Below are positions 842 to 15,384 of a stretch of DNA of 64,000 nt, piece by piece; the first letter of the stretch is position 1; each line of letters starts with the position of its first letter. A program made the position numbers and the translations under genes. The stretch comes from Anaerolineales bacterium UBA5796 (GTDB taxonomy: Bacteria; Chloroflexota; Anaerolineae; Anaerolineales; Villigracilaceae). Below the pieces are notes generated by a model, which did not search any database, had not been told where the DNA came from, and saw nothing but the letters and a program-made list of their open reading frames with translations. Location of the stretch: positions 1 to 64,000 of the forward strand of contig DIDQ01000119.1 of NCBI GenBank assembly GCA_002418215.1, in the 5' to 3' direction.

Positions 842-1243
842 ATGGCACGAAAAATTCAGGCCTGGGTAGAGTTCGGGCCGCGCCTGGAACCGAGGGAACC
901 GCTGGATGCGGAGGGGCTGATCCTGCGCATTGTGCAGGCCACCAACCAGAGCCGGGGCAGCGTCAAAGCCATCCTCGACGAACTGGACAGCCAGCTCGAA
1001 ATTGCCCTGCAGGAAGGCACCATCGTGCAACTTCCCAACGGCATGCACTTCCAGCCGATCGGCAAGCGCAACGGCAAGATAGAAATCAGGGTACGCATCA
1101 ACCCGGACCTGCTCAAGCGCATCAATGCCATCTTCCGCGGCAAATGGCGCAACCCGGAGAATATCGGCAAGACCGAGGATGAGATCTTCGACCAGTGGGA
1201 TGCGGCCCATCCCGGCGACCCGGTTGACAGGAGCAGCCTCTAA
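842..1243 (+). CDS. Hypothetical protein (133 aa)
   Basis: Clean ORF with an AAGGAG Shine-Dalgarno 8 nt upstream. A strong intrinsic terminator follows it. No recognisable motifs. Confidence 0.6.
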   Translation: MARKIQAWVEFGPRLEPREPLDAEGLILRIVQATNQSRGSVKAILDELDSQLEIALQEGTIVQLPNGMHFQPIGKRNGKIEIRVRINPDLLKRINAIFRGKWRNPENIGKTEDEIFDQWDAAHPGDPVDRSSL

Positions 1244-1538: not shown

Positions 1539-1643
1539 CCTCCCCCGAAAATCCAAAGTGCGGAATTTTCGGGGGAGGGGCAGAGCCTGTGTCCGCAAGT
1601 CAACAAAGCCTCCCCCATTTTCAAGAGCGGAAAATGGGGGAGG
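1539..1643. repeat. Two related G-rich hairpins (CCTCCCCCGAAAAT...ATTTTCGGGGGAGG and CCTCCCCCATTTT...AAAATGGGGGAGG)
   Basis: Stems of 13-14 bp at 1539-1578 and 1609-1643. They sit between the palindrome array and the 3' end of vsr. Confidence 0.7.
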
Positions 1644-1733
1644 TTGGAGGGGGCGGGGTTGGCCGACTCGCGGTGTTTACTACATTGGCGAAAAATCTTC
1701 TGGTCTCCTTGTAAATATCAATAAGCATTAGCA

Positions 1734-2198
1734 TTAACTAGACCTTGTAACACCTCTGATTTCGCTGCTGGAAGTATTTTCAACCAACCAGGTAGCAATT
1801 TTTTTTATTAATTCATCGAAATCCAGTTTTTTTCTTCCCTTTAAGGCGCATTCCCAAATTATAAGGACTTTCCATCCCAATTTTTTCAATTCAGCAATAT
1901 TTTTTATGTCTCGCTCTTGGTTTCCTGTAATTTTCCCCCCCCAAAATTCCGGACGAGTTGACGGCCACTTAAATAAATGGCAATCATGCCCATGCCAGAA
2001 ACATCCATTGATTTGAATTACTGCCCTATATTTTGGAAATACCAGATCGGGCTTCCCCGGGAGAGATGCAACATGTAAGCGATATCGAAATCCTCTTTTG
2101 TGGATGGCTGTGCGTATTCTGATTTCCGGTTTTGTATCTTTCCCCTGAATTCCTGACATCATTTTACTTCTGGTTTCAGGTGAAACTACATCGGTCAT
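1734..2198 (-). CDS. vsr: Very-short-patch-repair endonuclease (Vsr)
   Basis: About 150 aa with a conserved FWHGH motif and the overall Vsr pattern (KPD/E ... F.HGC.WH). It lies in an operon with a Dcm methyltransferase. Confidence 0.85.
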   Translation of the reverse strand: MTDVVSPETRSKMMSGIQGKDTKPEIRIRTAIHKRGFRYRLHVASLPGKPDLVFPKYRAVIQINGCFWHGHDCHLFKWPSTRPEFWGGKITGNQERDIKNIAELKKLGWKVLIIWECALKGRKKLDFDELIKKIATWLVENTSSSEIRGVTRSS

Positions 2199-2206
2199 AT
2201 TTCAAC

Positions 2207-3532
2207 TTACTCCAGCAACATTAACATGCCTGGCCTGGATGTTTGGCGAGCAAGCCAGGCTTGCAAATCTGTAAAAGCCTGTCCCCGCATACGCAAGAAT
2301 GCCTTTTTATTTTTTATTTTTTCTAGTTCAATAGTTATCACATGTCGAGCGCTGAAAAAGAAATAATATTCGCCAGCCGGCAACGGATCGTCTAAAAATA
2401 CAGGCCCAAACTTTAAAATAAATTCAGCCTTCTTGATCTTCGCTTTTTCTGTGGCAGGTATAAGGATACCGGCTACAAAACGAGCAATACGAATATTATT
2501 CTGGGAATGATCACAAGAAGCATTTACTTCCACTATTACAGATTTGGAAACAGGTTCCAGTGCAGCCCTATAGGCATCTTTTTGATTTTCCTTGCAATTC
2601 ATAAAATCATCTAAAACTTCTTCAATTGAAGGAACATGTGCCCATTTTTGCGATAAGTCTAAATATATATTCCCGGCATAAAATCGCTTCGTTTCATCTA
2701 CAGCCAAATGTAACATAGTATTTAGTTTTGCTTTGGCGCGTATATCTTTGCTTGAAGACGAATTCATAATTTCAGCAGAGTACGGAGAAAGAGATTTATT
2801 TACTTTGGAGTTATTACTTTCCATTCGATCAGAATGTAATGGATTTAGAGAACCATACAGAGCATTCAAACAAAGATTGGCGTCCAGTTGTTTCCCAGCC
2901 TCAGCTTCTGCCATCGCATGTAACAATTGCAGGAATTGGGTATTCCAGGCACTGCGCCATTCCGCTAGGCTTTTTGTATCATTGCTTGTAAGAGCAGATA
3001 ACGCATTTGTGACCATTGTAGCTGCTTTATGGCTATTTTCCTCCCATACTTGAAGAAGTAATAAAGGACTAAAGCTGTTCAATTCAGTTTGGATTTTGGA
3101 AAGGATAAGTTTTATGTTCAGGTTGCCTTTGATATCTTTACATTCTGTTTTGGTTAAACGAGAAACAAAGACTGGGTTTGGAATATTGGGTTCTGTAAAC
3201 ATAGTTTCTTCAAACAATTCTTGCAGTTCAGGATGTTTTGTCCATACAAGGACTCCGTATGGACCGTTATCCGGTCGCAATATCCCCATCACATACATAA
3301 GCAAAGTTGACACTTTTGATTTGTCTGAAGAAACTCCACCATCTAGCAAATCCATATCCAGGATTGCTAATCTTACACCAACCAATCTTTGACTTTTTAG
3401 TGGAAGTGCAGTTCTGGTTCCATCAAAATATGTGGAAGAAATGCCTAGTTTTGAAAGTCCTTTGAGCATTGGAAGGGCTTCCTTTTCATCATCATCAACA
3501 ACGATAACCCTTGTTCCACTTAATCCATTCAT
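2207..3532 (-). CDS. Receiver (REC)-domain protein with a ~300-aa C-terminal domain of unknown function
   Basis: The N-terminus reads RVIVVDDDE (acidic pocket), LAILDMDL (candidate phospho-acceptor Asp) and TKHP (Lys-Pro). The C-terminal 300 aa carry no recognisable motif. The ORF overlaps its neighbours by 4 nt, so it is co-operonic. Confidence 0.6.
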   Translation of the reverse strand: MNGLSGTRVIVVDDDEKEALPMLKGLSKLGISSTYFDGTRTALPLKSQRLVGVRLAILDMDLLDGGVSSDKSKVSTLLMYVMGILRPDNGPYGVLVWTKHPELQELFEETMFTEPNIPNPVFVSRLTKTECKDIKGNLNIKLILSKIQTELNSFSPLLLLQVWEENSHKAATMVTNALSALTSNDTKSLAEWRSAWNTQFLQLLHAMAEAEAGKQLDANLCLNALYGSLNPLHSDRMESNNSKVNKSLSPYSAEIMNSSSSKDIRAKAKLNTMLHLAVDETKRFYAGNIYLDLSQKWAHVPSIEEVLDDFMNCKENQKDAYRAALEPVSKSVIVEVNASCDHSQNNIRIARFVAGILIPATEKAKIKKAEFILKFGPVFLDDPLPAGEYYFFFSARHVITIELEKIKNKKAFLRMRGQAFTDLQAWLARQTSRPGMLMLLE

Positions 3533-5679
3533 TTTTTATTTCCTCCAAAGATCAATGCAACGACGGCTCCGTTAAATTCGTCAGGAAGAGAAATCTCTCC
3601 AATTTCTGGAAAAACTAACCGCCCCCCTTGAGCTTTCATAACCTGATCAGCAAGGTGCAATCCAAGTCCCATGCCATCCGGCTTTCTGCTAATAAATGGT
3701 TCAATTAAGTACTCAGGAGGATCAACAAACCCTGGGCCATTATCTGCAATCACAATTGCTGGTCCTTGGTCAAATTCCTTAGTCATTCCGATATAGATTT
3801 TCTTCTTATCAACTTGTTCTCCCCATTTGTTATCCAGCCACCAAATCGAATTATCAATTATATTCATCAGAGTTGATATCGTAAGTCGTTTGCTGCAATT
3901 GGTTTCAAAATTACCTTGCCTTGTATCGGAAATTAATTTTATGTTGTGGTTCTTAAGTCTTAACTCGGTGTTAAATACTGCCTGAGAGATCATAGTTCCT
4001 GCTTTTTCACGAGTTATCCCCGATCTTCTTATAAGGCTGGCAAAACCTTCGACTAAATCTGCCAAATGCTTTGCTAAATTTCTAATGCGGGGGCTGGCCT
4101 TTTCTTCTTGCACAGCTCTTGAAAGTTCATCTATCCCTTTTTCTACTTCATGAATAACTATTGAAAGACTTAACCCGGCACTTGCGCTTGTCAAAAAACG
4201 ATCTCGGATAAGAATAAAGTCAGATTCAATCCTGTTAATGTATGGTCCAAGTTCACTTGTTAGTTTTTTCCTTTCTATAAGGTTGCGTAACTCGGAAAGG
4301 TCTTCAATAACCGGTTCTTTGATTTTTTTACTACTGTATGCATTCCGAATACGTGTCTTGTCTTTGTTACGCTCGGCTTGTATTTGAACAACCGCTTCGG
4401 TAACTGCGTCCTTGAAAGCTCGAAATGCTTCATTGTCTACAAAACCTTCTCGATTTGTTTTTTCAATTAAACCTGAACTGGCCTCAATATCTAAGGACGC
4501 AGCCCCAACTACCAAGTTGTTACTTATTCGCTGTGTTGGCACATTCACTCGTTTTCCGCCTAAATTCAGCCAATCATTGCCAGGTTCTCCATAATCATAA
4601 ACCCGCATCCCGGCTCTATACACTCGTATTCCGCCAGACTCGTCAAGAAAATCTTTCAGCCCTTGTTTATCCGTTACTCCAAGTGATAATATTTTAGGCT
4701 CACGGTCAAAAATATAAAGATCAATATGGATTGGCCCAACTTCTCTTAGAAGAGTTTTGCTTGAAATATCCTTCGGTAAATCGAGCTTTACATTTTGAAC
4801 ATTTCGAGCATCGATTTTGTCTAGCATGGCAGGCAATGGGACAAATGAATAATTATAAAAAAGCTTAACAGTTTGAGTGTTATCCGGGTCTGCCTCTATA
4901 TCGCAGTTTGCACGAAATAGAGAATATTCCAAAACTGTTTCCACCGTCAACAATTTATCCAACCAATCTTTATTCTCAGTAAGCACGAGTTCAGTATTGA
5001 ATTCCCCGATTTCGTCAAAAGGTGAACAAATTGACATTACCGCACGTGCAAGTTCCCGAACCATGCCTCGGTTCCATACATTGCGTAGATTCTCAATTTC
5101 GATTTTTGTTCCTGTCTGACTCCCGGTAAAAACTTGCGGTTCTCGTTCTACAACTACAACGGGAACATCTTCTAAATATTTATGTTTTGTAAAATCGTTC
5201 CAATCTATCTCAACAAAAACTTCTGGCTGTTTTTTTTTGCGTGTGACTAGTCTGACCTTCAATCCCAATTTATGAGCAGCAAACCGGCCAACACCTTTCT
5301 CGCCAAGTGGCAAGCGGCCATATTTTGGCGTCCTTTCATCATTCTCTCGTTGTTTAGCTTTATAGTCAGTTCCGGGCTCAAGCCATACGTGTGTAACAGT
5401 ATCAAAATCCATACCAATCCCTGTATCTTCCACCGTAATCAAACCCTTATTCTGGTCAGTCAAGTTTGACATTGTTACTTTTACACCAGGGGAGTCCGCA
5501 TCATACGCATTTTTAACTAACTCAAACACCGCAATTCCGGGATCCTTGATAAGCTGATCACCTAATAGTAACAATAATCTAGCTCGTGGGCGGAAAGTAA
5601 ACTCATTTGTCATGGCGCTCTTCCCATCTTGATGAGGCATTTTATTATCTTCATCCATTTTTAACCAAGCTCTTAACAA
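3529..5679 (-). CDS. Dual GHKL-ATPase protein. The N-terminus is a MORC/MutL-like HATPase_c_3 domain; the C-terminal half is a histidine-kinase-like H-box plus HATPase_c domain.
   Basis: The N-terminal Bergerat-fold motifs are ELVKNAYDA (N-box) and DTGIGMD (G1). The middle region has IVIHEVEKGIDEL, a candidate H-box. The C-terminal motifs are LMNIIDNSIWW (N), IADNGPGF (G1) and GMGLGLHLA (G2). The true start may be an internal Met. Confidence 0.65.
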   Translation of the reverse strand: MLRAWLKMDEDNKMPHQDGKSAMTNEFTFRPRARLLLLLGDQLIKDPGIAVFELVKNAYDADSPGVKVTMSNLTDQNKGLITVEDTGIGMDFDTVTHVWLEPGTDYKAKQRENDERTPKYGRLPLGEKGVGRFAAHKLGLKVRLVTRKKKQPEVFVEIDWNDFTKHKYLEDVPVVVVEREPQVFTGSQTGTKIEIENLRNVWNRGMVRELARAVMSICSPFDEIGEFNTELVLTENKDWLDKLLTVETVLEYSLFRANCDIEADPDNTQTVKLFYNYSFVPLPAMLDKIDARNVQNVKLDLPKDISSKTLLREVGPIHIDLYIFDREPKILSLGVTDKQGLKDFLDESGGIRVYRAGMRVYDYGEPGNDWLNLGGKRVNVPTQRISNNLVVGAASLDIEASSGLIEKTNREGFVDNEAFRAFKDAVTEAVVQIQAERNKDKTRIRNAYSSKKIKEPVIEDLSELRNLIERKKLTSELGPYINRIESDFILIRDRFLTSASAGLSLSIVIHEVEKGIDELSRAVQEEKASPRIRNLAKHLADLVEGFASLIRRSGITREKAGTMISQAVFNTELRLKNHNIKLISDTRQGNFETNCSKRLTISTLMNIIDNSIWWLDNKWGEQVDKKKIYIGMTKEFDQGPAIVIADNGPGFVDPPEYLIEPFISRKPDGMGLGLHLADQVMKAQGGRLVFPEIGEISLPDEFNGAVVALIFGGNKK

Positions 5680-6679
5680 CCTTTGTCATCACTGGAGGAC
5701 ATACACCATTCCCCATCAACTTAATTCGATCACGTCTGGTTAATCCAGGAATACTGTCTAACTGAAAATCTGGTGTAAAGCCCATCGCCAACTTTAATTC
5801 TTCCGGTTGTAGCATCCTCATCACATGTCCATTTTCACTTGGCGTTACATAGGCAAAGCGATCAAGTGTAGTAATTGTGCCTAATGGCTCCTCAATACTT
5901 TGCCAGCCTTTATTTTTTTTGCGTCCGGAACCATAATACACGAGCAAGAATGAAGTGTTATTGCCAAGAACTGAAATTGCCCGTTCAGCCGAATGAATTG
6001 TATTTTCTGCTCTGCCCGGTTTTCTCAAAGGAGTGAATTTATATTTTCCAGAATTATCAATAATTGTTGAGGCTGGTTTGGTAATGACATATTCGGCGGC
6101 TGGTTCCGCTGCTTTTCCAGTCAAGGAACACAATAAAAACAAACGCTCTCGTGACTGAGGAACACCCAGATTTTTAGCATTAATTATCGTTTTTTTTACA
6201 AAATATTTCAATTCCCATAAATTTTCAAGCAAGTCCTTAAACTTATCCCATGATTCAAATTCAGTCACATTTTCAATAACCATCCATCGTGGTCTAAACA
6301 CTCTGGCAAATCGAACAGCCTCAAATGCTGTCATTTTGCTTTCTTCGTCTCTTTCAGCATTCCCCTTTGCCTTGGAATGATTTGTACATTCGGGGGATGC
6401 CAGGATTAAATCAATATTACCGATTGACGATTTAAATTGGCGAATCTCTTCGTCTGTTAATTTTTGCAAGTCTGTCTGGAATACCTCAGCTTTAGGGAAA
6501 TTTGCCTTATATGTTTTTATTGCCAAATCCCACATATCAAATCCAGCAACAACATCAACACCAGCTTTTGTTGCTCCAAAGCTGCTTCCACCTGCACCGC
6601 AGAACAAGTCAATTGCTTTGATTTTTGTCTCATACATAAGCTTATCCTGTAGTTTCCTTAAAGCATAAACACTTGCCAA
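5651..6679 (-). CDS. dcm: DNA (cytosine-5)-methyltransferase (Dcm family)
   Basis: Motif I is DLFCGAGG. Motif IV is PC, read as ASPECTNHS. Motif VI is ENV. Motif VIII is QSRERLF. Motif X is GNGV. Confidence 0.9.
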   Translation of the reverse strand: MASVYALRKLQDKLMYETKIKAIDLFCGAGGSSFGATKAGVDVVAGFDMWDLAIKTYKANFPKAEVFQTDLQKLTDEEIRQFKSSIGNIDLILASPECTNHSKAKGNAERDEESKMTAFEAVRFARVFRPRWMVIENVTEFESWDKFKDLLENLWELKYFVKKTIINAKNLGVPQSRERLFLLCSLTGKAAEPAAEYVITKPASTIIDNSGKYKFTPLRKPGRAENTIHSAERAISVLGNNTSFLLVYYGSGRKKNKGWQSIEEPLGTITTLDRFAYVTPSENGHVMRMLQPEELKLAMGFTPDFQLDSIPGLTRRDRIKLMGNGVCPPVMTKVVKSLVKNG

Positions 6680-7118
6680 CCTCTAATCGTTTTTTGCTTG
6701 TTGGCACATACCACGCGTTCATTCTTTTATCCCAGGCGCGTATTTGTAAAAATTGTTCCCATGAAAATTGATAGAGAGCATTAAGAGTATAGTCGGGAGC
6801 CAATATCACGATCAATAGGTATTCAAAAAGCTGTTTATCCGGGTTTTGTTCATCAGGGTAAATAGTTCCTGTTTTACTACCCTTTTGAATAGTTTTGATT
6901 GAAAATCTTTCCCCATTTCGTGAAAGCGCATCCACATTTTTTGATCCTGGTGCGGATGCCGTTAAATTAGATAGTCCAGGTGTATTACGAAAATAATTTA
7001 TTGCAGCAGCTTCTCCGATTTCACCCACTGAAAAAGAAAGACCTCGGGTGCGCATTTCCCGCTCGACTTCAATTCGAAGTGATATTAGTACATCATCGTT
7101 CAGGGTTGTTATATCCAC
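6642..7118 (-). CDS. Hypothetical protein (158 aa); first gene of the island operon
   Basis: AT-rich ORF overlapping the dcm start by 38 nt. It has a weak PD-(D/E)xK-like pattern (VDAL ... ERFSIK) that could not be confirmed. Confidence 0.45.
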   Translation of the reverse strand: MDITTLNDDVLISLRIEVEREMRTRGLSFSVGEIGEAAAINYFRNTPGLSNLTASAPGSKNVDALSRNGERFSIKTIQKGSKTGTIYPDEQNPDKQLFEYLLIVILAPDYTLNALYQFSWEQFLQIRAWDKRMNAWYVPTSKKRLEVGKCLCFKETTG

Positions 7119-7341
7119 GTATGTTCCTGGCCTGAAATGTTTTATCTATTAAACCACATCATTTATGTGATTTACCAGCCACATCCAAATTTTATTCTAA
7201 TAAACTGTATCAAACAATAAAAAATTTTTGCAAATTCGAAATTAGGGTTCCGGAGTTTTCTTTTACCCAATTCCCGAATATCGAATAGCTACTCCCCGCT
7301 CCCCTCTCCCCCAATTCTCTAACACTCCTCCAACCTGCCTC

Positions 7342-7370
7342 TGTTATAATTTTCCCTTCGAAAGGGAAAA
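7342..7370 (+). promoter_or_regulatory. Extended -10 promoter (TGTTATAAT) followed by a leader hairpin TTCCCTTCGAAAGGGAA, upstream of secA
   Basis: TGnTATAAT sits 28 nt upstream of the ATG. A perfect 7-bp stem lies between them. There is no Shine-Dalgarno; the sequence just before the ATG is CACCTCC. Confidence 0.5.
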
Positions 7371-7377
7371 CACCTCC

Positions 7378-10300
7378 ATGCTTCAAAAATTTGTCAATAT
7401 TTTCGGGGGCGACCCCAATAAAAAAGAAATCAACAAGATCAGCGAGATCGTCGAGCAGGTCAACGCCTTCGAGCCGCAGTTCGAAGAACTCAGCAACGAC
7501 GCCTTGCGCGCCAAAACGGACGAGTTCCGGGCGTTGTTGAAGTCTGAGTTGGAAGGCGTCGAGAACGAAGACGAGCGCAAGAAAATCGAGCAGGCCGTCC
7601 TCGACGAGCTCCTGCCCGAGGCCTACGCCGTCGTCCGCGAAGTCTCGAAACGGACCCTGGGCATGCGTCCCTTCGACGTGCAGATGATCGGCGGGATCGT
7701 GTTGCACCGGGGCCAGATCGCCGAGATGCGCACCGGCGAAGGCAAGACCCTGGTCGCCACCCTGCCGATCTACCTCAACGCCCTCACCGGGCGCGGCGTC
7801 CACCTGGTCACGGTCAACGATTACCTGGCCCGGCGTGACGCCCGCTGGATGGCCCCCATCTACCACTTCCTCGGCCTGTCAGTGGGCGTGCTGCAAATGG
7901 CTGCCGCCACCGAGAACGGCAAGAAAGCCTTCATCTACGATCCCGAAAAAGAATCCACCCAGGAAGACCAGCACCAGTTGCGCCTGGTGGACCGCCGCCG
8001 GGCCTACGAAGCCGACATCACTTACGGCACCAACGCCGAGTTCGGCTTCGATTACCTACGCGACAACATGACCATGCGCCTCGAAGACCGCGTTCAGCGG
8101 GGCCACTATTACTGCATCATTGACGAAGTGGACAACGTGCTGATAGACGAGGCCCGCACCCCGCTCATCATCTCCGGCCCAGCCTCGGGCGACCTGGAAT
8201 GGTACGGGCGCATGGCCCAGATCGTCAAGCAACTCAAGCCTGAAGATTACGAACTGAGCGAGAAAGACCGCAGCATCTCGCTGACCGAGATAGGCGTGGC
8301 CCACGTCGAACAACTGCTCGGCCAGCCGCTGATGGACCCCGACCGGCCCGAAGACCTGAACCCGGAGCAGGCCCGGCTGATGGGCTACCTCGAACAGGCC
8401 CTGCGCGCCCAGTACCTGTTCCACCGAAACAAGGATTACCTCGTCCAGGCTGGCAAGGTGGTCATCGTGGATACCTTCACCGGCCGCCTGATGCCCGGAC
8501 GCCGCTGGAGCGACGGCCTGCACCAGGCTGTGGAAGCCAAGGAAGGTGTGCGGGTGGAGCCTGAGAACATCACCTACGCCACCATTACTCTGCAAAACTA
8601 TTACCGCATGTACGAAAAACTCTCCGGCATGACCGGCACCGCCCTGACCGAGGCCGAAGAGTTCAGCAAGATCTACAAACTCGAAGTCCTGCCCATCCCC
8701 ACCAACCTGGAACACAACGCCACCCGTCCCGGCTCGCCGCTGGTGGAGCGCAAGGACAAGGACGAAGACGGCTACGAGTATTCGTTCTTCATGCCAAGAG
8801 ACGCCACCTCCGATAACGGGCCGGTGCTTTGGCGGCGCAAGGATTACCCCGACGTGATCTTCCGCTCGCAGGAGGCCAAGCTGCGCAACATCGTGCGCGA
8901 GGTGGTCTTCAACCACGCACTTGGGCGTCCCCTGCTGATCGGCACCACCTCGGTCGAAAGTTCCGAGCGCCTGTCGGAGCGGCTGCGGGCCGAACCGGTG
9001 CGCCGCCTGATGCAGGTCCTGCTTATCCGGGATGCCTGGATGGGGGCCAACGGCCGCGAAGAAGACGGGCGGCTCATCCCTGAACTTGTACCGTTGAACG
9101 CGCCCCTCGAACGGATCCAGGCCCCGGACCTGCGCCAGTTCGCCCGTCCGCTGGAGTTATCTCTCAATCCCGAGGACCAGGCCAACCTGTCGCGGTTGAT
9201 CGAACTGCTGGGGTTGTCGGCGGAGAACCATGACCGGCTGAAGTCGGTGCTCCAGGGCGGAGTCCCGCATCAAGTTCTCAACGCCCGCAAACATACTGAG
9301 GAAAGCCAGATCATCGCCGGGGCGGGCGCGTTCGGGGCAGTGACCATCGCTACCAACATGGCCGGTCGCGGGGTGGACATCAAGCTCGGCGGCGAGATGG
9401 CCGAGGAGATCATTGCCATCGTCAACCGGGTGCTGAAACGCACCGAGGCCGAAGACCCCTACGAGATGAGCATGGAGGAGCGCCGTCAGGCCCTGCTCAA
9501 GCTCGACCCCTCGGAATACGGCATCTACGAAGCCGAGATCAAACACTTTTTGCAATACTTCGAAGACATGGCCCAGGTGAAAGCCCTGGGCGGCCTGCAC
9601 GTGATCGGCTCGGAACGCCACGAAGCCCGACGGATTGACAACCAGCTGCGCGGCCGCGCCGCCCGCCAGGGCGACCCCGGCTCGTCGCGCTTCTACCTCT
9701 CGCTCGAAGACGACCTGATGCGGCTCTTCGGCGGGCAGCAGGTCAGCGGCTTGATGGACCGCCTGAAAGTGGACGAGTCGCTGCCGCTGGAGGCAAAGCT
9801 GGTCAGTAACATCGTCGAAGGCTCGCAGCACCGGGTGGAAGGGGCCAACTTCGACGTCCGCAAGCACCTGCTCGAATACGACGACGTGCTCAACTCGCAG
9901 CGCGAACGCATCTATTCGCAGCGCGACCGGGTCTTCACCAAAGACGACCTGACCGACGACGTGGCCGGCATGCTCCAGGCCGAGGTCGAGACCCGCGTCC
10001 CGGCTGCCCTGGCCGACGAGGAAGGCCCATGGAAGCTGCTGGCCTGGCTCGAACAGACCCAGCCGACCTTCAACACCGCCGACGGGCTGTTCCCGTCTTA
10101 CACCTATCGCCTGCTGCTGGACGAGATCGAGGACGGCAGCCGCGAACAGATCCTGTCCCTGGTGCGCCGGGCCGTCGAGACCGAGAACGGGCACATCTGG
10201 CGCGCCGTCGCTGCCACGATAGACCGCACCGCTGAAAGCCTCGACAGCCAGATGGATGAACGCCGGGAGGCCCTGGAGACCTTCCTGGAGGCCCTGGGCG

Positions 10301-11391
10301 ACCGCGATGAGACCGACACCCGCCGCCCACAGGAACTCCTCGAGGAATTGCAGTCCCTCGCCCGCGTGCCCCTGCGCCTGAACAACGAACAACTGCGCCA
10401 ACTGGCGGACGACCCCGAAGGCCTTGCAGACGATATCGAAGAACAGGTCGAACAGGCGCTCACCGCAATTGCCGTCTCCCGCCTGCTGTCCACACTCGAA
10501 TACCGCCTGGGCGAATCGCTCAGCCTCGACAAGAACATCCTGGCCCGCCTCGAATGGGACGAATTGGTCGGGAAGATCACCGGCGCGGCCCGCCGGGCGC
10601 TCGAGGGCCGCCTCGAAATGCTGGTGAGCCAGGCCGGGCGCGACCTCGACATCCTGCTCCAGCGCGGCCGGCCGCAGAGCGACGATGAACGCATCCGCCT
10701 GCTGGGGTCGCTTTCCCAGGGGTCCCGCACCGCCTTCGACGCCAAAACCCACCGCCAGGTCCGGCAATCCTTCGCCCGCTTCAATTATCTCTTCCTGGCC
10801 GCAAAATTGCTGGAAAACCGCAGCGATGGAGCCGTGGCCGAGGACGTGCTGGAGCATCTCGAAATAGCCCAGGAGACGCTGGGACGCGCCTGGGGGACCA
10901 GCGAATACGCCCGCCTGTCCCGGAACGCCGCATCCCTCGCGGACTTTGGGCCGGCTGCCGCTATTTTCACCGAGTCGCGTCGGGAGGCATCTCCCGCCTC
11001 CCTGTCTGACGAGGAGCGCGAGACCCTGATGGAGTCGCTCAGCCGCGCCGTCCAGACCCAGATCTACCGCCAGGTGCTGCTCAACGCCATCACCGAACTC
11101 TGGGTGGAGTACCTGACCAAGGTCGAAGCCCTGCGGGTTGCCATCGGGCTGGAGGCTTACGCCCAGCGTGACCCGCTGGTACAATACAAGACCCAGGCCT
11201 CCGAAATGTTCCAGAACCTGCTGGGCGATATCCGCTCAGCGGTGGTCAGCCGCATCTTCCTGTACCAGCCCCGGGCTTACGCCGCCGCCCGCATCGTCGA
11301 AAGCGAAGAAACCGTCCTGTCCCAGCCCCAGCCGGTCACGGCCGCGGCCCAGGACGGCGGCAAAAAGAAAAAGAAGCGCAAACGACATTAG
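7378..11391 (+). CDS. secA: Preprotein translocase ATPase SecA; unusually long at 1337 aa, with insertions in NBD2 and a Lys/Arg-rich C-terminal tail that has no zinc finger
   Basis: It carries the Walker A motif MRTGEGKTLVA, the DEAD-like motif DEVDNVLIDEARTPLIIS and the conserved SecA motif RGRAARQGDPGSSRFYLSLEDDL. The tail ends GGKKKKKRKRH with no cysteines. Confidence 0.95.
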   Translation: MLQKFVNIFGGDPNKKEINKISEIVEQVNAFEPQFEELSNDALRAKTDEFRALLKSELEGVENEDERKKIEQAVLDELLPEAYAVVREVSKRTLGMRPFDVQMIGGIVLHRGQIAEMRTGEGKTLVATLPIYLNALTGRGVHLVTVNDYLARRDARWMAPIYHFLGLSVGVLQMAAATENGKKAFIYDPEKESTQEDQHQLRLVDRRRAYEADITYGTNAEFGFDYLRDNMTMRLEDRVQRGHYYCIIDEVDNVLIDEARTPLIISGPASGDLEWYGRMAQIVKQLKPEDYELSEKDRSISLTEIGVAHVEQLLGQPLMDPDRPEDLNPEQARLMGYLEQALRAQYLFHRNKDYLVQAGKVVIVDTFTGRLMPGRRWSDGLHQAVEAKEGVRVEPENITYATITLQNYYRMYEKLSGMTGTALTEAEEFSKIYKLEVLPIPTNLEHNATRPGSPLVERKDKDEDGYEYSFFMPRDATSDNGPVLWRRKDYPDVIFRSQEAKLRNIVREVVFNHALGRPLLIGTTSVESSERLSERLRAEPVRRLMQVLLIRDAWMGANGREEDGRLIPELVPLNAPLERIQAPDLRQFARPLELSLNPEDQANLSRLIELLGLSAENHDRLKSVLQGGVPHQVLNARKHTEESQIIAGAGAFGAVTIATNMAGRGVDIKLGGEMAEEIIAIVNRVLKRTEAEDPYEMSMEERRQALLKLDPSEYGIYEAEIKHFLQYFEDMAQVKALGGLHVIGSERHEARRIDNQLRGRAARQGDPGSSRFYLSLEDDLMRLFGGQQVSGLMDRLKVDESLPLEAKLVSNIVEGSQHRVEGANFDVRKHLLEYDDVLNSQRERIYSQRDRVFTKDDLTDDVAGMLQAEVETRVPAALADEEGPWKLLAWLEQTQPTFNTADGLFPSYTYRLLLDEIEDGSREQILSLVRRAVETENGHIWRAVAATIDRTAESLDSQMDERREALETFLEALGDRDETDTRRPQELLEELQSLARVPLRLNNEQLRQLADDPEGLADDIEEQVEQALTAIAVSRLLSTLEYRLGESLSLDKNILARLEWDELVGKITGAARRALEGRLEMLVSQAGRDLDILLQRGRPQSDDERIRLLGSLSQGSRTAFDAKTHRQVRQSFARFNYLFLAAKLLENRSDGAVAEDVLEHLEIAQETLGRAWGTSEYARLSRNAASLADFGPAAAIFTESRREASPASLSDEERETLMESLSRAVQTQIYRQVLLNAITELWVEYLTKVEALRVAIGLEAYAQRDPLVQYKTQASEMFQNLLGDIRSAVVSRIFLYQPRAYAAARIVESEETVLSQPQPVTAAAQDGGKKKKKRKRH

Positions 11392-11406
11392 AAATCCGGT
11401 GTCCAG

Positions 11407-12453
11407 TTGAAAAAAGACAAGACAACGGCCTCTCTCAATATTTATAAGGTATTGCCCAAGGTCGAATTGCACCGCCACCTGGAGGGATCGCTGCGTATTG
11501 CCACCATGCTGGAGATCGCCGAACAGCACGGCGTCACCGTCCCGCCCAGCATCGTGGACTTGAGCAGCCTGGTCCAGGTGCAAGATGAAGAGCCGTTCAC
11601 TTTCACCAATTTCCTCGAAAAATTCAAAACCCTGCGCCTGTTCTACCGCTCGCCGGAGGTGATAGACCGCATCACCCGCGAAGCCATCGAAGACGCGGCC
11701 CGCGACAACGTGCGCTACATGGAACTGCGCTTCACGCCGGTGGCCCTCAGCCGGGCCGAGGGTTTCCCGCTCCACGACGTGATGGCCTGGGTCTGCAAGT
11801 CCACCCGCAGGGCCGCCGACGAATTCGGCATCACCGTGCGCCTGATCGCCTCGGTCAACCGCCACGAGAGTGTCGAACTGGCCGAGCAGGTGGCCTGGCT
11901 GGCCGCCGGTCACATCGAAGACGGCATCCTGGGCCTCGACCTGGCCGGGAACGAAGCCGAGTATCCCGCCAGGCCGTTCGAAGGCATCTTCAAGGAGGCC
12001 CGCCAATCCGGCCTGAAGACCACCGTCCACGCCGGGGAGTGGGGCGGCGCGCAAAATGTGGGCGAGGCCATCCAGGTGTTCGACGCCGACCGCATCGGCC
12101 ATGGCGTGCGCGTCCTCGAAGACCCGTCGGTGGCGGCGCTGGCCCGCGAGCGCGGTGTCGTGTTCGAGGTCTGCATCACCAGCAACCTCCAGTCCGGCGT
12201 GGTGTCCGCCGTCAGCGCCCACCCCCTGGCAGCCATGCTTGGGTCCGGGCTGAACGCCACCCTCAACACCGACGACCCCAGCGTCTCGCGCATCACCCTG
12301 ACCCACGAGTTCAAGCTGGCCGCCGAAGACCTGGGCCTGCCGTTCGAGGCGCTCAAGGAACGGGTGCTGGCCGCGGCCAGGGCCTCCTTCCTGCCGGATG
12401 CCGAGCGTATGCTGCTGGTCGCAGAAGTGGAAAGCAAATTGGCTCGCTTATGA
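11407..12453 (+). CDS. add: Adenosine deaminase
   Basis: Contains ELHRHLEGS, SVNRHES and HAGE metal-ligand motifs. The start is TTG. Confidence 0.85.
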   Translation: MKKDKTTASLNIYKVLPKVELHRHLEGSLRIATMLEIAEQHGVTVPPSIVDLSSLVQVQDEEPFTFTNFLEKFKTLRLFYRSPEVIDRITREAIEDAARDNVRYMELRFTPVALSRAEGFPLHDVMAWVCKSTRRAADEFGITVRLIASVNRHESVELAEQVAWLAAGHIEDGILGLDLAGNEAEYPARPFEGIFKEARQSGLKTTVHAGEWGGAQNVGEAIQVFDADRIGHGVRVLEDPSVAALARERGVVFEVCITSNLQSGVVSAVSAHPLAAMLGSGLNATLNTDDPSVSRITLTHEFKLAAEDLGLPFEALKERVLAAARASFLPDAERMLLVAEVESKLARL

Positions 12454-12628
12454 CGCCACCACGCAGGCGCAAAGACCGTCAAAGGCGCTCCTTTGCGGAT
12501 TTTGCGATTGTGTGGTGACCTTTAACCACCCTCACCCCACCCCTGCTTTGGTGGTCGAGTAGGACGAAGTCCGCCTCGAGACCAGGGAGAGGGGCAAGGG
12601 GCGAGGGATCAGACCAAAGGAGACTCCC

Positions 12629-15364
<2,736 letters not shown>

Positions 15365-15384
15365 TAAGTGTTGCGTATTGCGTA

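What the first reader, a model, noticed from the sequence alone, without database searches (positions are those of the whole stretch)
3529..5679. A single polypeptide carries two GHKL ATPase domains: a MORC/MutL-like one at the N-terminus and a histidine-kinase catalytic domain at the C-terminus
The N-terminal motifs are ELVKNAYDA and DTGIGMD. The C-terminal motifs are LMNIIDNSIWW, IADNGPGF and GMGLGLHLA. A candidate phospho-His lies in IVIHEVEKGIDEL.

This architecture is unusual. It could sense DNA state through the MORC-like module and signal by phosphotransfer to the downstream REC protein.
Basis: seen in the sequence. Interest (0 to 1): 0.7.

Follow-up and report, generated by a model that had tools for sequence, protein, structure and literature searches.

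The report
MORC-like ATPase fused to histidine kinase
The gene really does encode a protein with a MORC/MutL-type ATPase at one end and a histidine-kinase core at the other, paired with a receiver protein beside a cytosine methylase, but this layout is widespread and was described in 2021, so it is a new member of a known, still uncharacterised defence-type module.

Summary
The ORF probably starts at ATG 5613, giving 694 aa rather than the 716-aa TTG ORF. It encodes a MORC-like ATPase module (GHKL plus transducer), a coiled coil, a DHp hairpin and a histidine-kinase catalytic (CA) domain. Both ATP sites are invariant in homologues. The proposed phospho-His is His in 85 of 87 diverse homologues.

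The next gene overlaps it by 4 bp. It encodes a CheY-fold receiver with all five catalytic residues conserved, fused to a 300-aa domain with no Pfam or PDB relative.

Both genes sit in a low-GC five-gene operon: BisI-like 5mC-dependent nuclease, C5 methylase, this kinase, the receiver protein, Vsr.

The architecture is not rare: 1,113 clusters at 50% identity match at E<=1e-30, across many bacterial phyla and two MAGs labelled archaeal. It was published in silico in 2021 as HEF_HK/Response_reg_2, and a similar methylase-kinase-receiver-nuclease system (Ambrosia) was shown to defend against phages in 2025. The window pair is a sister branch that Pfam's two models miss.

My best reading is a phosphorelay-gated, methylation-linked defence module. 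The effector chemistry is unknown. Interest is moderate.

The parts
3529..5613 (-). Kinase-like paraMORC gene, 694 aa from ATG 5613.
5014..5613 (-). N-terminal GHKL ATP-binding domain (residues 1-200). Motifs ELVKNAYDA, DTGIGMD, GEKGVGRF and TGT are invariant or nearly so in 87 homologues.
4444..5013 (-). Beta-rich transducer (S5-like) domain with inserts (residues 201-390). It forms the MORC/MutL-type ATPase module with the GHKL domain. Conserved RVYRDG..YGE.G.DWL and EKTNREGF motifs.
   Evidence: MORC3 aligns over 293 residues
4189..4443 (-). Long helical (coiled-coil-like) linker, residues 391-475.
4024..4188 (-). DHp-like helical hairpin, residues 476-530, with the H-box IVIHEVEKG. The candidate phospho-His H488 (H510 in the 716-aa numbering) is codon 4150-4152.
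3532..4023 (-). Histidine-kinase catalytic (CA) domain, residues 531-694. N box (NIIDNSIWW), G1 (DNGPGF), F box and G2 (GMGLGL) are all conserved.
2207..3532 (-). Partner gene, 441 aa. Its start overlaps the kinase stop (ATGA), with a GGAGGA ribosome-binding site.
3128..3532 (-). Receiver (REC) domain of the partner, residues 1-135. The predicted phospho-acceptor D59 is codon 3356-3358.
2210..3127 (-). Effector domain of the partner, residues 136-441: a helical bundle plus an alpha/beta part. No Pfam, NCBIfam, PADLOC or PDB relative. Invariant C340-D341 (codons 2510-2515); also W163, E164, D235, E335, R433 and G435.
5651..6637 (-). C5 cytosine DNA methyltransferase (328 aa as called on the identical contig). 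Motif IV is the variant SPECTNHS, shared with related loci.
1734..2198 (-). Vsr very-short-patch (T:G mismatch) repair endonuclease.
6642..7118 (-). 158-aa protein (called S158 in this report), a BisI/Eco15I-family putative 5mC-dependent restriction endonuclease. First gene of the operon.
   Evidence: PADLOC mREase_II, 3.8e-50; Eco15I, E 0.05
1609..1643 (-). Terminator-like hairpin (14-bp stem) after vsr; probable end of the operon.
1730..7450 (.). Low-GC island (36-43% GC against 60-65% in the flanks), between secA and an HU-HIG gene. No tRNA gene or integrase.

Best explanation
The ORF encodes a soluble kinase-like paraMORC. An N-terminal MORC/MutL-type ATPase module (GHKL plus transducer) takes the place that a sensor domain has in ordinary histidine kinases. 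A coiled coil joins it to a DHp-CA kinase core.

Proposed mechanism:
1. The protein dimerises through the DHp.
2. ATP-driven closing of the MORC-like gate, probably on DNA that lacks the cassette's own 5mC mark, is transmitted through the coiled coil.
3. The CA domain phosphorylates H488.
4. The phosphoryl group passes to D59 of the translationally coupled receiver protein.
5. This switches on the receiver protein's 300-aa effector domain, which acts against the invader.

The adjacent C5 methylase marks self DNA, and Vsr repairs the T:G mismatches that 5mC deamination causes. The whole is a horizontally acquired, restriction-modification-like defence cassette.

Shown here: the domain architecture, intact catalytic residues in both ATP sites, the H-box, the receiver residues, and the gene linkage.
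Inferred: dimerisation, the DNA trigger, phosphotransfer, and the effector activity. The effector's chemistry is unknown; its hallmark is an invariant Cys-Asp.
For: - Architecture.
- Catalytic conservation: E31, N35, D38, D63, G65, K106, N588 and D624 in 87 of 87 homologues; H488 in 85 of 87. For the receiver, D59 and K128 in 63 of 63, D13 and T98 in 62 of 63, D14 in 61 of 63.
- Linkage in 80 loci from different species. A partner detected by profile lies directly downstream on the same strand in 62. Eleven more have a receiver-like ORF there, judged from the N-terminal sequence in all 11 and with weak Pfam receiver hits in five of the nine scanned.
- A C5 methylase lies within 7 kb in at least 50 of the 80 loci, usually abutting the kinase gene. 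Vsr is present in 43. An HhH-GPD glycosylase flanks the cassette in 4 loci, in some of which no Vsr was detected.
- Operon signs: ATGA overlap, terminator, low-GC island.
- DNA link: EcoRII-N is fused to two homologues. The GHKL domain matches the BbrUII/HgiDII restriction-enzyme model at E 3e-20. paraMORCs sit in restriction-modification operons (PMC2292703).
- Precedent: in the Ambrosia system a methylase, an HK/HSP90-like ATPase, a receiver protein and a nuclease are all needed for phage defence, and mutating the receiver Asp (D60A) abolishes it (bioRxiv 10.1101/2025.09.30.679545).
Against: - No biochemical evidence exists for this subfamily.
- Pfam HisKA, HEF_HK, Response_reg and Response_reg_2 do not score on the window proteins.
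- The effector domain has no recognisable nuclease motif or fold match. An invariant Cys is atypical for nucleases.
- The window protein has no identifiable sequence-specific DNA-binding domain.
- Some loci carry a separate conventional type II nuclease, so the kinase-receiver pair need not be the restriction arm.
- In the window's own clade a 5mC-dependent nuclease often precedes the methylase. This fits a different logic.
Confidence: 0.55

Rival explanations
1. Transcriptional control. The kinase and receiver are an ordinary regulatory two-component system. On infection it switches on expression of the neighbouring methylase and nuclease genes, as the Ambrosia authors and PMC8011034 propose. 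The partner's C-terminal domain would then bind DNA.
For: The Ambrosia working model has a REC-wHTH protein and infection-induced expression. PMC8011034 suggests regulation of restriction-modification systems. XRE-type HTH genes lie upstream in some related loci.
Against: No HTH or wHTH was detected in the partner by Pfam in 63 members. Full-length OmpR/NarL-type regulators align only over the receiver part. The C-terminal domain is 300 aa with invariant Cys-Asp, Glu, Asp and several Arg, which looks enzymatic rather than like a small DNA-binding module.
Confidence: 0.15
2. Methylate-and-cut system. The phosphorelay controls a pair made of the C5 methylase and a 5mC-dependent nuclease (here the BisI-like 158-aa protein). 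On infection, DNA is marked by the methylase and then cut by the methyl-directed enzyme.
For: A putative 5mC-dependent nuclease lies directly upstream of the methylase in 5 of about 10 loci of the window's clade. It comes from two unrelated families, BisI-like and AspBHI_N+Mrr_cat. Ambrosia combines a methylase with a type IV HNH nuclease. HNH_2 neighbours are noted in PMC8011034.
Against: Only 1 of 80 diverse loci has a BisI-like gene, and AspBHI/Mrr does not appear among the 25 most frequent flanking families listed. So the nuclease is clade-specific and optional. Vsr, or in a few loci an HhH-GPD glycosylase, accompanies the methylase. That argues the host DNA is methylated all the time, which would be lethal if the neighbour cut that pattern. 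BisI itself coexists with C5 methylases of other specificity (PMC4926085).
Confidence: 0.12
3. ATPase only. The C-terminal kinase-like domain is a second GHKL ATPase or dimerisation module of a restriction complex, and no phosphotransfer occurs. The receiver-like domain serves only as a docking module.
For: No Pfam DHp or receiver model reaches threshold. GHKL domains work without phosphotransfer in MutL, MORC and the BbrUII/HgiDII enzymes.
Against: His is kept in 85 of 87 homologues with an acidic neighbour, and the N, G1, F and G2 boxes are intact. All five receiver catalytic residues are kept in 61-63 of 63. Such conservation is hard to explain without phosphoryl chemistry. In Ambrosia the D60A mutation kills defence.
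Confidence: 0.1
4. Repair helper. The MutL-like module is an accessory of Vsr, as E. coli MutL stimulates Vsr. Together with the methylase it forms a self-contained very-short-patch repair kit rather than a defence system.
Against: Vsr is missing from 37 of 80 loci, while a receiver partner is present in at least 73 of 80. This reading does not explain the kinase core or the effector domain.
Confidence: 0.05

Closest known systems
HEF_HK / Response_reg_2 'two-component-system-like elements' linked to C5 methylases and paraMORCs (Bellieny-Rabelo et al. 2021, PMC8011034; Pfam PF19191, PF19192)
   Same: Same domain order, HATPase_c_3 + DHp with a His-acidic H-box + HATPase_c. The protein is soluble. 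A receiver-like gene is adjacent, with a C5 methylase upstream and Vsr often downstream. The window kinase is a full-length homologue (31% identity, E 1e-90, His aligned) of a protein that scores at the HEF_HK threshold. The partner's Cys-Asp and C-terminal R-x-G motifs recur in partners that score near the Response_reg_2 threshold.
   Different: PF19191 and PF19192 do not score on the window proteins or their close relatives. Partner effector domains align only in short motifs, and hhalign aligns only the receiver part. The published work is purely computational.
Ambrosia anti-phage system (bioRxiv 10.1101/2025.09.30.679545)
   Same: One operon combines a DNA methylase, an HK/HSP90-like ATPase, a receiver protein and a modification-dependent nuclease. 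Defence needs the receiver Asp.
   Different: Ambrosia has an N6-adenine methylase, a REC-wHTH regulator, an HNH nuclease and an XRE gene. Here there is a C5 methylase, a receiver fused to an unknown 300-aa domain, a BisI-like nuclease and Vsr. I could not obtain AbrB or AbrC sequences, so homology and a two-GHKL layout for AbrB are untested.
MORC / paraMORC GHKL+S5 ATPases of restriction-modification operons (Iyer, Abhiman and Aravind 2008, PMC2292703)
   Different: Described paraMORCs carry nuclease, TIR or unknown C-terminal extensions and pair with helicases or nucleases. Here the extension is a kinase core paired with a receiver protein. The MORC-specific sequence motif was not tested.
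BbrUII/HgiDII family restriction enzymes (NCBIfam NF050001)
   Same: Their N-terminal GHKL domain matches at E 3e-20 over ~160 residues. PADLOC REase_II matches at E 1e-10.
   Different: The score is 72 bits against a cut-off of 550. Nothing beyond the GHKL domain matches.
Canonical HisKA-type sensor kinases with CheY-like regulators (for example HK853-RR468)
   Different: There is no membrane or PAS/HAMP sensor; a complete second ATPase module takes its place. No Pfam HisKA or Response_reg hit. The output domain is unknown.

Membership tests
HEF_HK kinase-like family (PF19191; PMC8011034 group 1) | Pfam HEF_HK model scores at or above its gathering score (24.1 bits) | tested here: not met
   No hit even at E<=10 for the window protein. 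No hit in 44 diverse relatives at E<=1e-3. The model is in the library: relatives L083, L079 and L078 score 24.1, 23.8 and 22.0 bits.
HEF_HK kinase-like family (PF19191; PMC8011034 group 1) | Architecture HATPase_c_3 + DHp with conserved His-acidic pair + HATPase_c | tested here: met
   Transmembrane segments were not predicted here; no membrane or canonical sensor domain was detected.
HEF_HK kinase-like family (PF19191; PMC8011034 group 1) | Full-length homology to a protein that carries HEF_HK, with the His aligned | tested here: met
   BLASTP against the L083 kinase: 31% identity over residues 6-662, E 1e-90, with IHEVEK aligned to THEFAR.
HEF_HK kinase-like family (PF19191; PMC8011034 group 1) | Adjacent receiver-like gene; C5 methylase and Vsr nearby | tested here: met
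   Window operon. In 80 loci: partner 62 (+11), Dcm at least 50, Vsr 43.
Response_reg_2 receiver-like family (PF19192) | Pfam Response_reg_2 model scores at or above 27 bits | tested here: not met
   No hit in the window partner or in any of 63 homologues at E<=1. Distant partners L079, L081 and L083 score 25.2, 16.5 and 16.9 bits.
Response_reg_2 receiver-like family (PF19192) | (beta-alpha)5 receiver fold with acidic pair, phospho-Asp, Thr and Lys | tested here: met
Functional histidine kinase | ATP-dependent autophosphorylation on the H-box His and transfer to the receiver Asp | not testable with these tools
   Only sequence and model evidence: H488 in 85 of 87, D59 in 63 of 63.
MORC / paraMORC ATPases | GHKL domain with intact Bergerat motifs followed by an S5-fold transducer domain | tested here: met
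MORC / paraMORC ATPases | MORC-specific signature motif, or assignment to one of paraMORC1-5 | not tested
   No profiles of these families were available. PMC2292703 describes paraMORC1 as having an uncharacterised C-terminal extension.
BbrUII/HgiDII restriction enzymes (NF050001) | Full-length match at or above 550 bits | tested here: not met
   72.2 bits; only profile positions 25-181 of 659 match.
Ambrosia defence system | Five genes: XRE, N6 methylase, HATPase, REC-wHTH, HNH | tested here: not met
   The window has a C5 methylase, no XRE, no HNH, and no wHTH detected in the partner. Sequence homology to AbrB and AbrC was not testable because the sequences are not held.
Known PADLOC defence systems (PADLOC-DB v2.0.0) | A PADLOC model hit on the kinase or the partner | tested here: not met
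   Only REase_II matches, on the GHKL part of the kinase. The partner has no hit.

The most novel reading that the evidence does not exclude
The receiver-fused 300-aa domain is a new enzyme class. It has an invariant Cys-Asp after a beta strand, a C-terminal R-x-G motif, and no Pfam or PDB relative. It would be switched on by phosphorylation from a MORC-type DNA clamp. The cassette would then be a restriction-like system in which DNA sensing and effector firing are separated by a His-Asp phosphorelay, and in this clade it would cooperate with a 5mC-dependent nuclease. It would also give the first direct biochemical read-out (phosphorylation) of the conformational state of a MORC ATPase.
Probability: 0.25. 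Interest if true: 0.75.

Novelty: new member of a known kind. Interest (0 to 1): 0.4.

Why it matters
MORC ATPases silence genes in animals and plants, yet how their ATP-driven clamp is coupled to an output is still debated. A bacterial MORC-type module wired directly to a kinase core gives a simple, measurable output for that clamp.

The family is very large and sits beside cytosine methylases in many phyla, but no member of this branch has been tested. Its effector domain also has no known relative. Showing what it does would add a signalling step to the known repertoire of restriction-type immunity.

The finding as written, however, repeats a published in-silico description.

Tried and rejected
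- Pfam HisKA, HEF_HK, Response_reg and Response_reg_2 on the window proteins: no hits. I first suspected the two newer models were missing from the library. They are present and score on distant relatives.
- A search for bona fide E. coli members, using Enterobacter and Salinivibrio relatives as DNA queries against complete E. coli genomes: no match.
- Supplementary tables of PMC8011034 are not held.
- A PD-(D/E)xK reading of the C-terminal domain was considered and dropped. The conserved residues (E335, C340, D341, Q344, R351) do not fit the motif, and the Cys is invariant.
- A DISARM reading, prompted by the methylase's strong DrmMII match, was rejected because no drmA, drmB or drmC genes are present.
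- Detocs was rejected on the partner's domain content, and no PADLOC model hit either protein beyond REase_II on the GHKL part.
- No tRNA gene, integrase or flanking repeat was found that would define how the island was acquired.
Full report
**1. What is there**

Window 1730-7450 is a low-GC island, 36-43% GC against 60-65% in the flanks. It lies between secA (7378-11391, + strand) and an HU-HIG gene. It holds five minus-strand genes:
- a 158-aa protein (7118-6642), called S158 below;
- a C5 DNA methylase (6637-5651);
- the ORF in question (5613-3529);
- a 441-aa protein (3532-2207);
- Vsr (2198-1734).

A 14-bp-stem terminator-like hairpin follows at 1643-1609. That TTG lies inside the end of the methylase gene. 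ATG 5613 has a GGGAAGAG ribosome-binding site, was chosen by the gene callers on the 100%-identical metagenome contig, and is where homologues begin to align. The kinase stop overlaps the partner's start (ATGA), with GGAGGA upstream.

**2.

Sequence evidence:
- Pfam HATPase_c_3 matches residues 27-168 of the 694-aa protein at E 2.8e-17.
- NCBIfam histidine-kinase models (AtoS, PrsK, LvrB and others) match residues ~570-690 of the 716-aa ORF at E down to 3e-9.
- PDB kinase sequences match at E 1e-4 to 1e-3.

Model evidence. An AlphaFold2 model built on 87 diverse homologues has mean pLDDT 90.8. It shows:
- a GHKL domain (residues 1-200);
- a beta-rich transducer region (201-390);
- long helices (395-475);
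- a helical hairpin (477-503 and 508-529);
- an alpha/beta domain (534-690).

**3.

The candidate His is H488 in the 694-aa numbering, H510 in the 716-aa numbering, codon 4150-4152. It sits on the first helix of the hairpin. Conservation in 87 full-length homologues of 28-49% identity:
- The residue is His in 85, and the next residue is acidic in 83.
- N-terminal site: E31, N35, D38, D63, G65 and K106 are in 87 of 87; G67, G104, G107 and G109 in 86; T169 in 85.
- C-terminal site: N588 and D624 are in 87 of 87; N584, G626 and G628 in 85; F640 in 84; G647, G649 and G651 in 83-86.

Neither ATP site looks degenerate.

**4. The partner**

Residues 136-441 form a helical bundle plus an alpha/beta part. 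Invariant residues are W163, E164, D235, N271, G287, C340, D341, R433 and G435; nearly invariant are E335, Q344 and R351. No PDB structure matches this part above the receiver hits. No PDB sequence matches. A database search with the domain alone finds it only in the same roughly 440-aa receiver fusions.

Across very distant partners, including those on Campylobacter and Enterobacter plasmids, two motifs persist. One is a beta strand followed by (T/N)-P-x-C-D, with the Cys invariant in 19 of 19. The other is a C-terminal R-x-G. I cannot name its activity. An invariant Cys argues against a classical nuclease.

**5. How common, and in what company**

An exhaustive HMMER search of 1.84 billion cluster representatives gives 6,915 hits at E<=1e-3, 3,925 at E<=1e-10 and 1,113 at E<=1e-30. 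The word-indexed search found at least 4,950 hits, and the top 120 are all about 695 aa with the same two Pfam domains.

Eighty loci, each from a different species genome, span Thermodesulfobacteriota, Acidobacteriota, Myxococcota, Verrucomicrobiota, Planctomycetota, Chloroflexota, Bacteroidota, Bacillota, Pseudomonadota, Cyanobacteriota, Spirochaetota and others, plus two MAGs labelled as archaea. My ORF and HMM scan of these loci finds:
- the partner directly downstream on the same strand in 62;
- a C5 methylase within 7 kb in at least 50, mostly abutting the kinase start;
- Vsr in 43.

Of the 18 loci without a detected partner, 11 have a receiver-like ORF directly downstream. That call rests on the N-terminal sequence in all 11, and five of the nine scanned gave weak Pfam receiver hits. 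Several of the rest are cut by contig ends.

Pfam on 119 flanking ORFs adds 12 more C5 methylases. It also shows ResIII, AIPR, HNH_2, EcoRII-C, MvaI/BcnI and HerA, the usual content of defence islands, and four HhH-GPD glycosylases. In L008, L094 and L095 the glycosylase is present and no Vsr was detected. That looks like a non-orthologous replacement for T:G repair.

Plasmids also carry the pair, in Burkholderia, Rhizobium, Agrobacterium and Campylobacter pTet-type plasmids. On a Rhizobium gallicum plasmid the order is kinase, partner, hypothetical, dcm, vsr, 'type II restriction endonuclease'.

**6. Relation to what is known**

PMC8011034 (2021) describes 'two-component-system-like elements':
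- kinase-like proteins with HATPase_c_3 + a new DHp domain (HEF_HK, PF19191) + HATPase_c;
- 91.6% linkage to receiver-like proteins (Response_reg_2, PF19192);
- C5 methylases upstream and Vsr often downstream;
- a proposed origin from paraMORCs.

That is this architecture and this context. The two Pfam models do not score on the window proteins. They do score at or just under threshold on distant relatives in my set: the L083 kinase at 24.1 bits (equal to the gathering score), the L079 kinase at 23.8 bits, and the L079 partner at 25.2 against a cut-off of 27. The window kinase aligns with the L083 kinase end to end (31% identity, E 1e-90) with the two His residues in register. So the window pair is a sister branch of the published family. 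The kinase is homologous throughout. The partner shares the receiver and the Cys-Asp and R-x-G motifs, but is otherwise too diverged for hhalign beyond the receiver.

Iyer et al. 2008 (PMC2292703) had already placed MORC and paraMORC GHKL+S5 ATPases in restriction-modification operons with cytosine methylases and Vsr. A 2025 preprint validates 'Ambrosia': XRE, N6 methylase, HK/HSP90-like ATPase, REC-wHTH and a type IV HNH nuclease. All five genes are needed against phages, and the receiver mutation D60A abolishes defence. I could not obtain its sequences, so its homology to the window proteins is untested.

**7. Mechanism**

Shown:
- an intact MORC-type ATPase module;
- an intact kinase core with a conserved H-box;
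- an intact receiver, translationally coupled to the kinase gene;
- tight linkage to a C5 methylase and a T:G repair enzyme;
- residence in a horizontally acquired island.

Inferred:
- The kinase core dimerises through the DHp, as all HisKA-type kinases do.
- The N-terminal GHKL domains close on ATP binding, as in MORC, MutL and GyrB.
- That movement is passed along the coiled coil to control autophosphorylation.
- The phosphoryl group goes to D59 and activates the unknown effector.

DNA as the trigger is suggested by several points. paraMORCs have a role in restriction-modification. The GHKL domain resembles that of BbrUII/HgiDII restriction enzymes (E 3e-20). Two homologues carry an N-terminal EcoRII-N DNA-binding domain. 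The frequent presence of Vsr or a glycosylase argues that the methylase acts constitutively on host DNA, as a self mark. I put 0.55 on this phosphorelay-gated, restriction-like reading.

**8. Rivals**

- Transcriptional control, as modelled for Ambrosia (0.15). No HTH is detectable, and the output domain looks enzymatic.
- Methylate-and-cut with the 5mC-dependent neighbour (0.12). This is attractive because of the recurrent neighbour described in section 9, but that neighbour is optional across the family, and constitutive methylation would be suicidal.
- ATPase only, with no phosphotransfer (0.10). This is contradicted by the conservation of His and Asp.
- A MutL-like helper of Vsr (0.05). 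Vsr is absent from 37 of 80 loci.

**9. An unexpected pattern**

In the window's own clade (kinase at least 64% identical), a putative 5mC-dependent nuclease sits directly upstream of the methylase, on the same strand. The gaps range from 2 to 41 bp in the related loci, and in the window only four bases separate the two genes. This holds in 5 of about 10 loci with readable context, and the nuclease comes from two unrelated families.
- The BisI/Eco15I-like 158-aa protein is in the window and in L093 (54% identity). In L024 it lies between the partner and Vsr.
- AspBHI_N+Mrr_cat proteins are in L089, L090 and L096.

Replacement of one family by another at the same position suggests a functional tie, and it echoes Ambrosia. 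BisI itself lies next to a C5 methylase gene and tolerates methylases of different specificity (PMC4926085). A simple reading is therefore a two-layer cassette. The methylase-linked arm deals with unmodified DNA, and the type IV arm deals with phages that carry modified cytosines.

**10. Verdict**

The phosphotransfer idea is reasonable and passed the tests available in silico. The claim of rarity is wrong, because the architecture is widespread and already described. The window adds a member of a sister branch that current Pfam models miss, with an effector domain of unknown chemistry. Interest is 0.4.

Noticed in passing
window 6642-7118 (-); also L093 2692-3186 and L024 10508-11026: A 158-aa BisI/Eco15I-family putative 5mC-dependent restriction endonuclease is the first gene of the operon; four bases separate it from the start of the C5 methylase gene. 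Evidence: PADLOC mREase_II at 3.8e-50 and PDB Eco15I at E 0.05. Homologues of 54% identity occupy equivalent places in two other loci.
   Followed up: partly
L089 2670-3986; L090 2783-3961; L096 1434-2759: In close relatives of the window cassette, the slot upstream of the methylase holds an unrelated 5mC-dependent enzyme type (RE_AspBHI_N + Mrr_cat). One family replaces another at the same position, which suggests a functional tie between the methylase-kinase-receiver cassette and type IV restriction.
   Followed up: partly
L008 10380-11132; L094 7957-8661; L095 9623-10306; L096 3755-4402: An HhH-GPD DNA glycosylase flanks the cassette in these loci. No Vsr was detected in L008, L094 or L095, so it is probably a T:G mismatch glycosylase replacing Vsr. 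That would imply the methylase acts constitutively on host DNA.
   Followed up: partly
window 2510-2515 (-), partner residues C340-D341; alignment A6: An invariant Cys-Asp after a beta strand, written (T/N)-P-x-C-D in distant partners, and a C-terminal R-x-G motif are the only features shared by the effector domains of all partner subfamilies. These include partners on Campylobacter and Enterobacter plasmids. No known fold or family matches.
   Followed up: partly
proteins P0285 and P0314; also P0238, P0239, P0242, P0258, P0290, P0305, P0327: Some kinase-like homologues have 130-240-aa N-terminal extensions. In two of them the extension is the EcoRII-N sequence-specific DNA-binding domain. In the others it is unidentified.
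   Followed up: partly
L022 (MAG labelled Cenarchaeum sp.) 6734-15372: Three kinase-like paralogues lie in tandem on one strand, with partner-like ORFs between or overlapping them.
   Followed up: no
window 5651-6637 (-): The C5 methylase has motif IV as S-P-E-C-T-N-H-S (Pro-Glu-Cys instead of the usual Pro-Cys). This variant is shared by several methylases of related loci in other phyla. The best PADLOC match is the DISARM DrmMII model (7.6e-97), although no other DISARM gene is present.
   Followed up: partly
L088 (Rhizobium gallicum plasmid pRgalIE4872a) 3521-10118: Here the kinase-partner pair is followed by a hypothetical gene, dcm, vsr and an annotated type II restriction endonuclease. 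In some loci, therefore, a conventional nuclease accompanies the same methylase.
   Followed up: no
window 1609-1643 (-) and 1730-7450: A strong terminator-like hairpin closes the operon. The island has sharp GC boundaries but no tRNA gene or integrase, so its insertion mechanism is unclear. Direct repeats were not searched for.
   Followed up: partly
window 842-1243 (+): A 133-aa HU-HIG (HU-like DNA-binding) protein gene lies just outside the island. It is also present on the identical metagenome contig.
   Followed up: no
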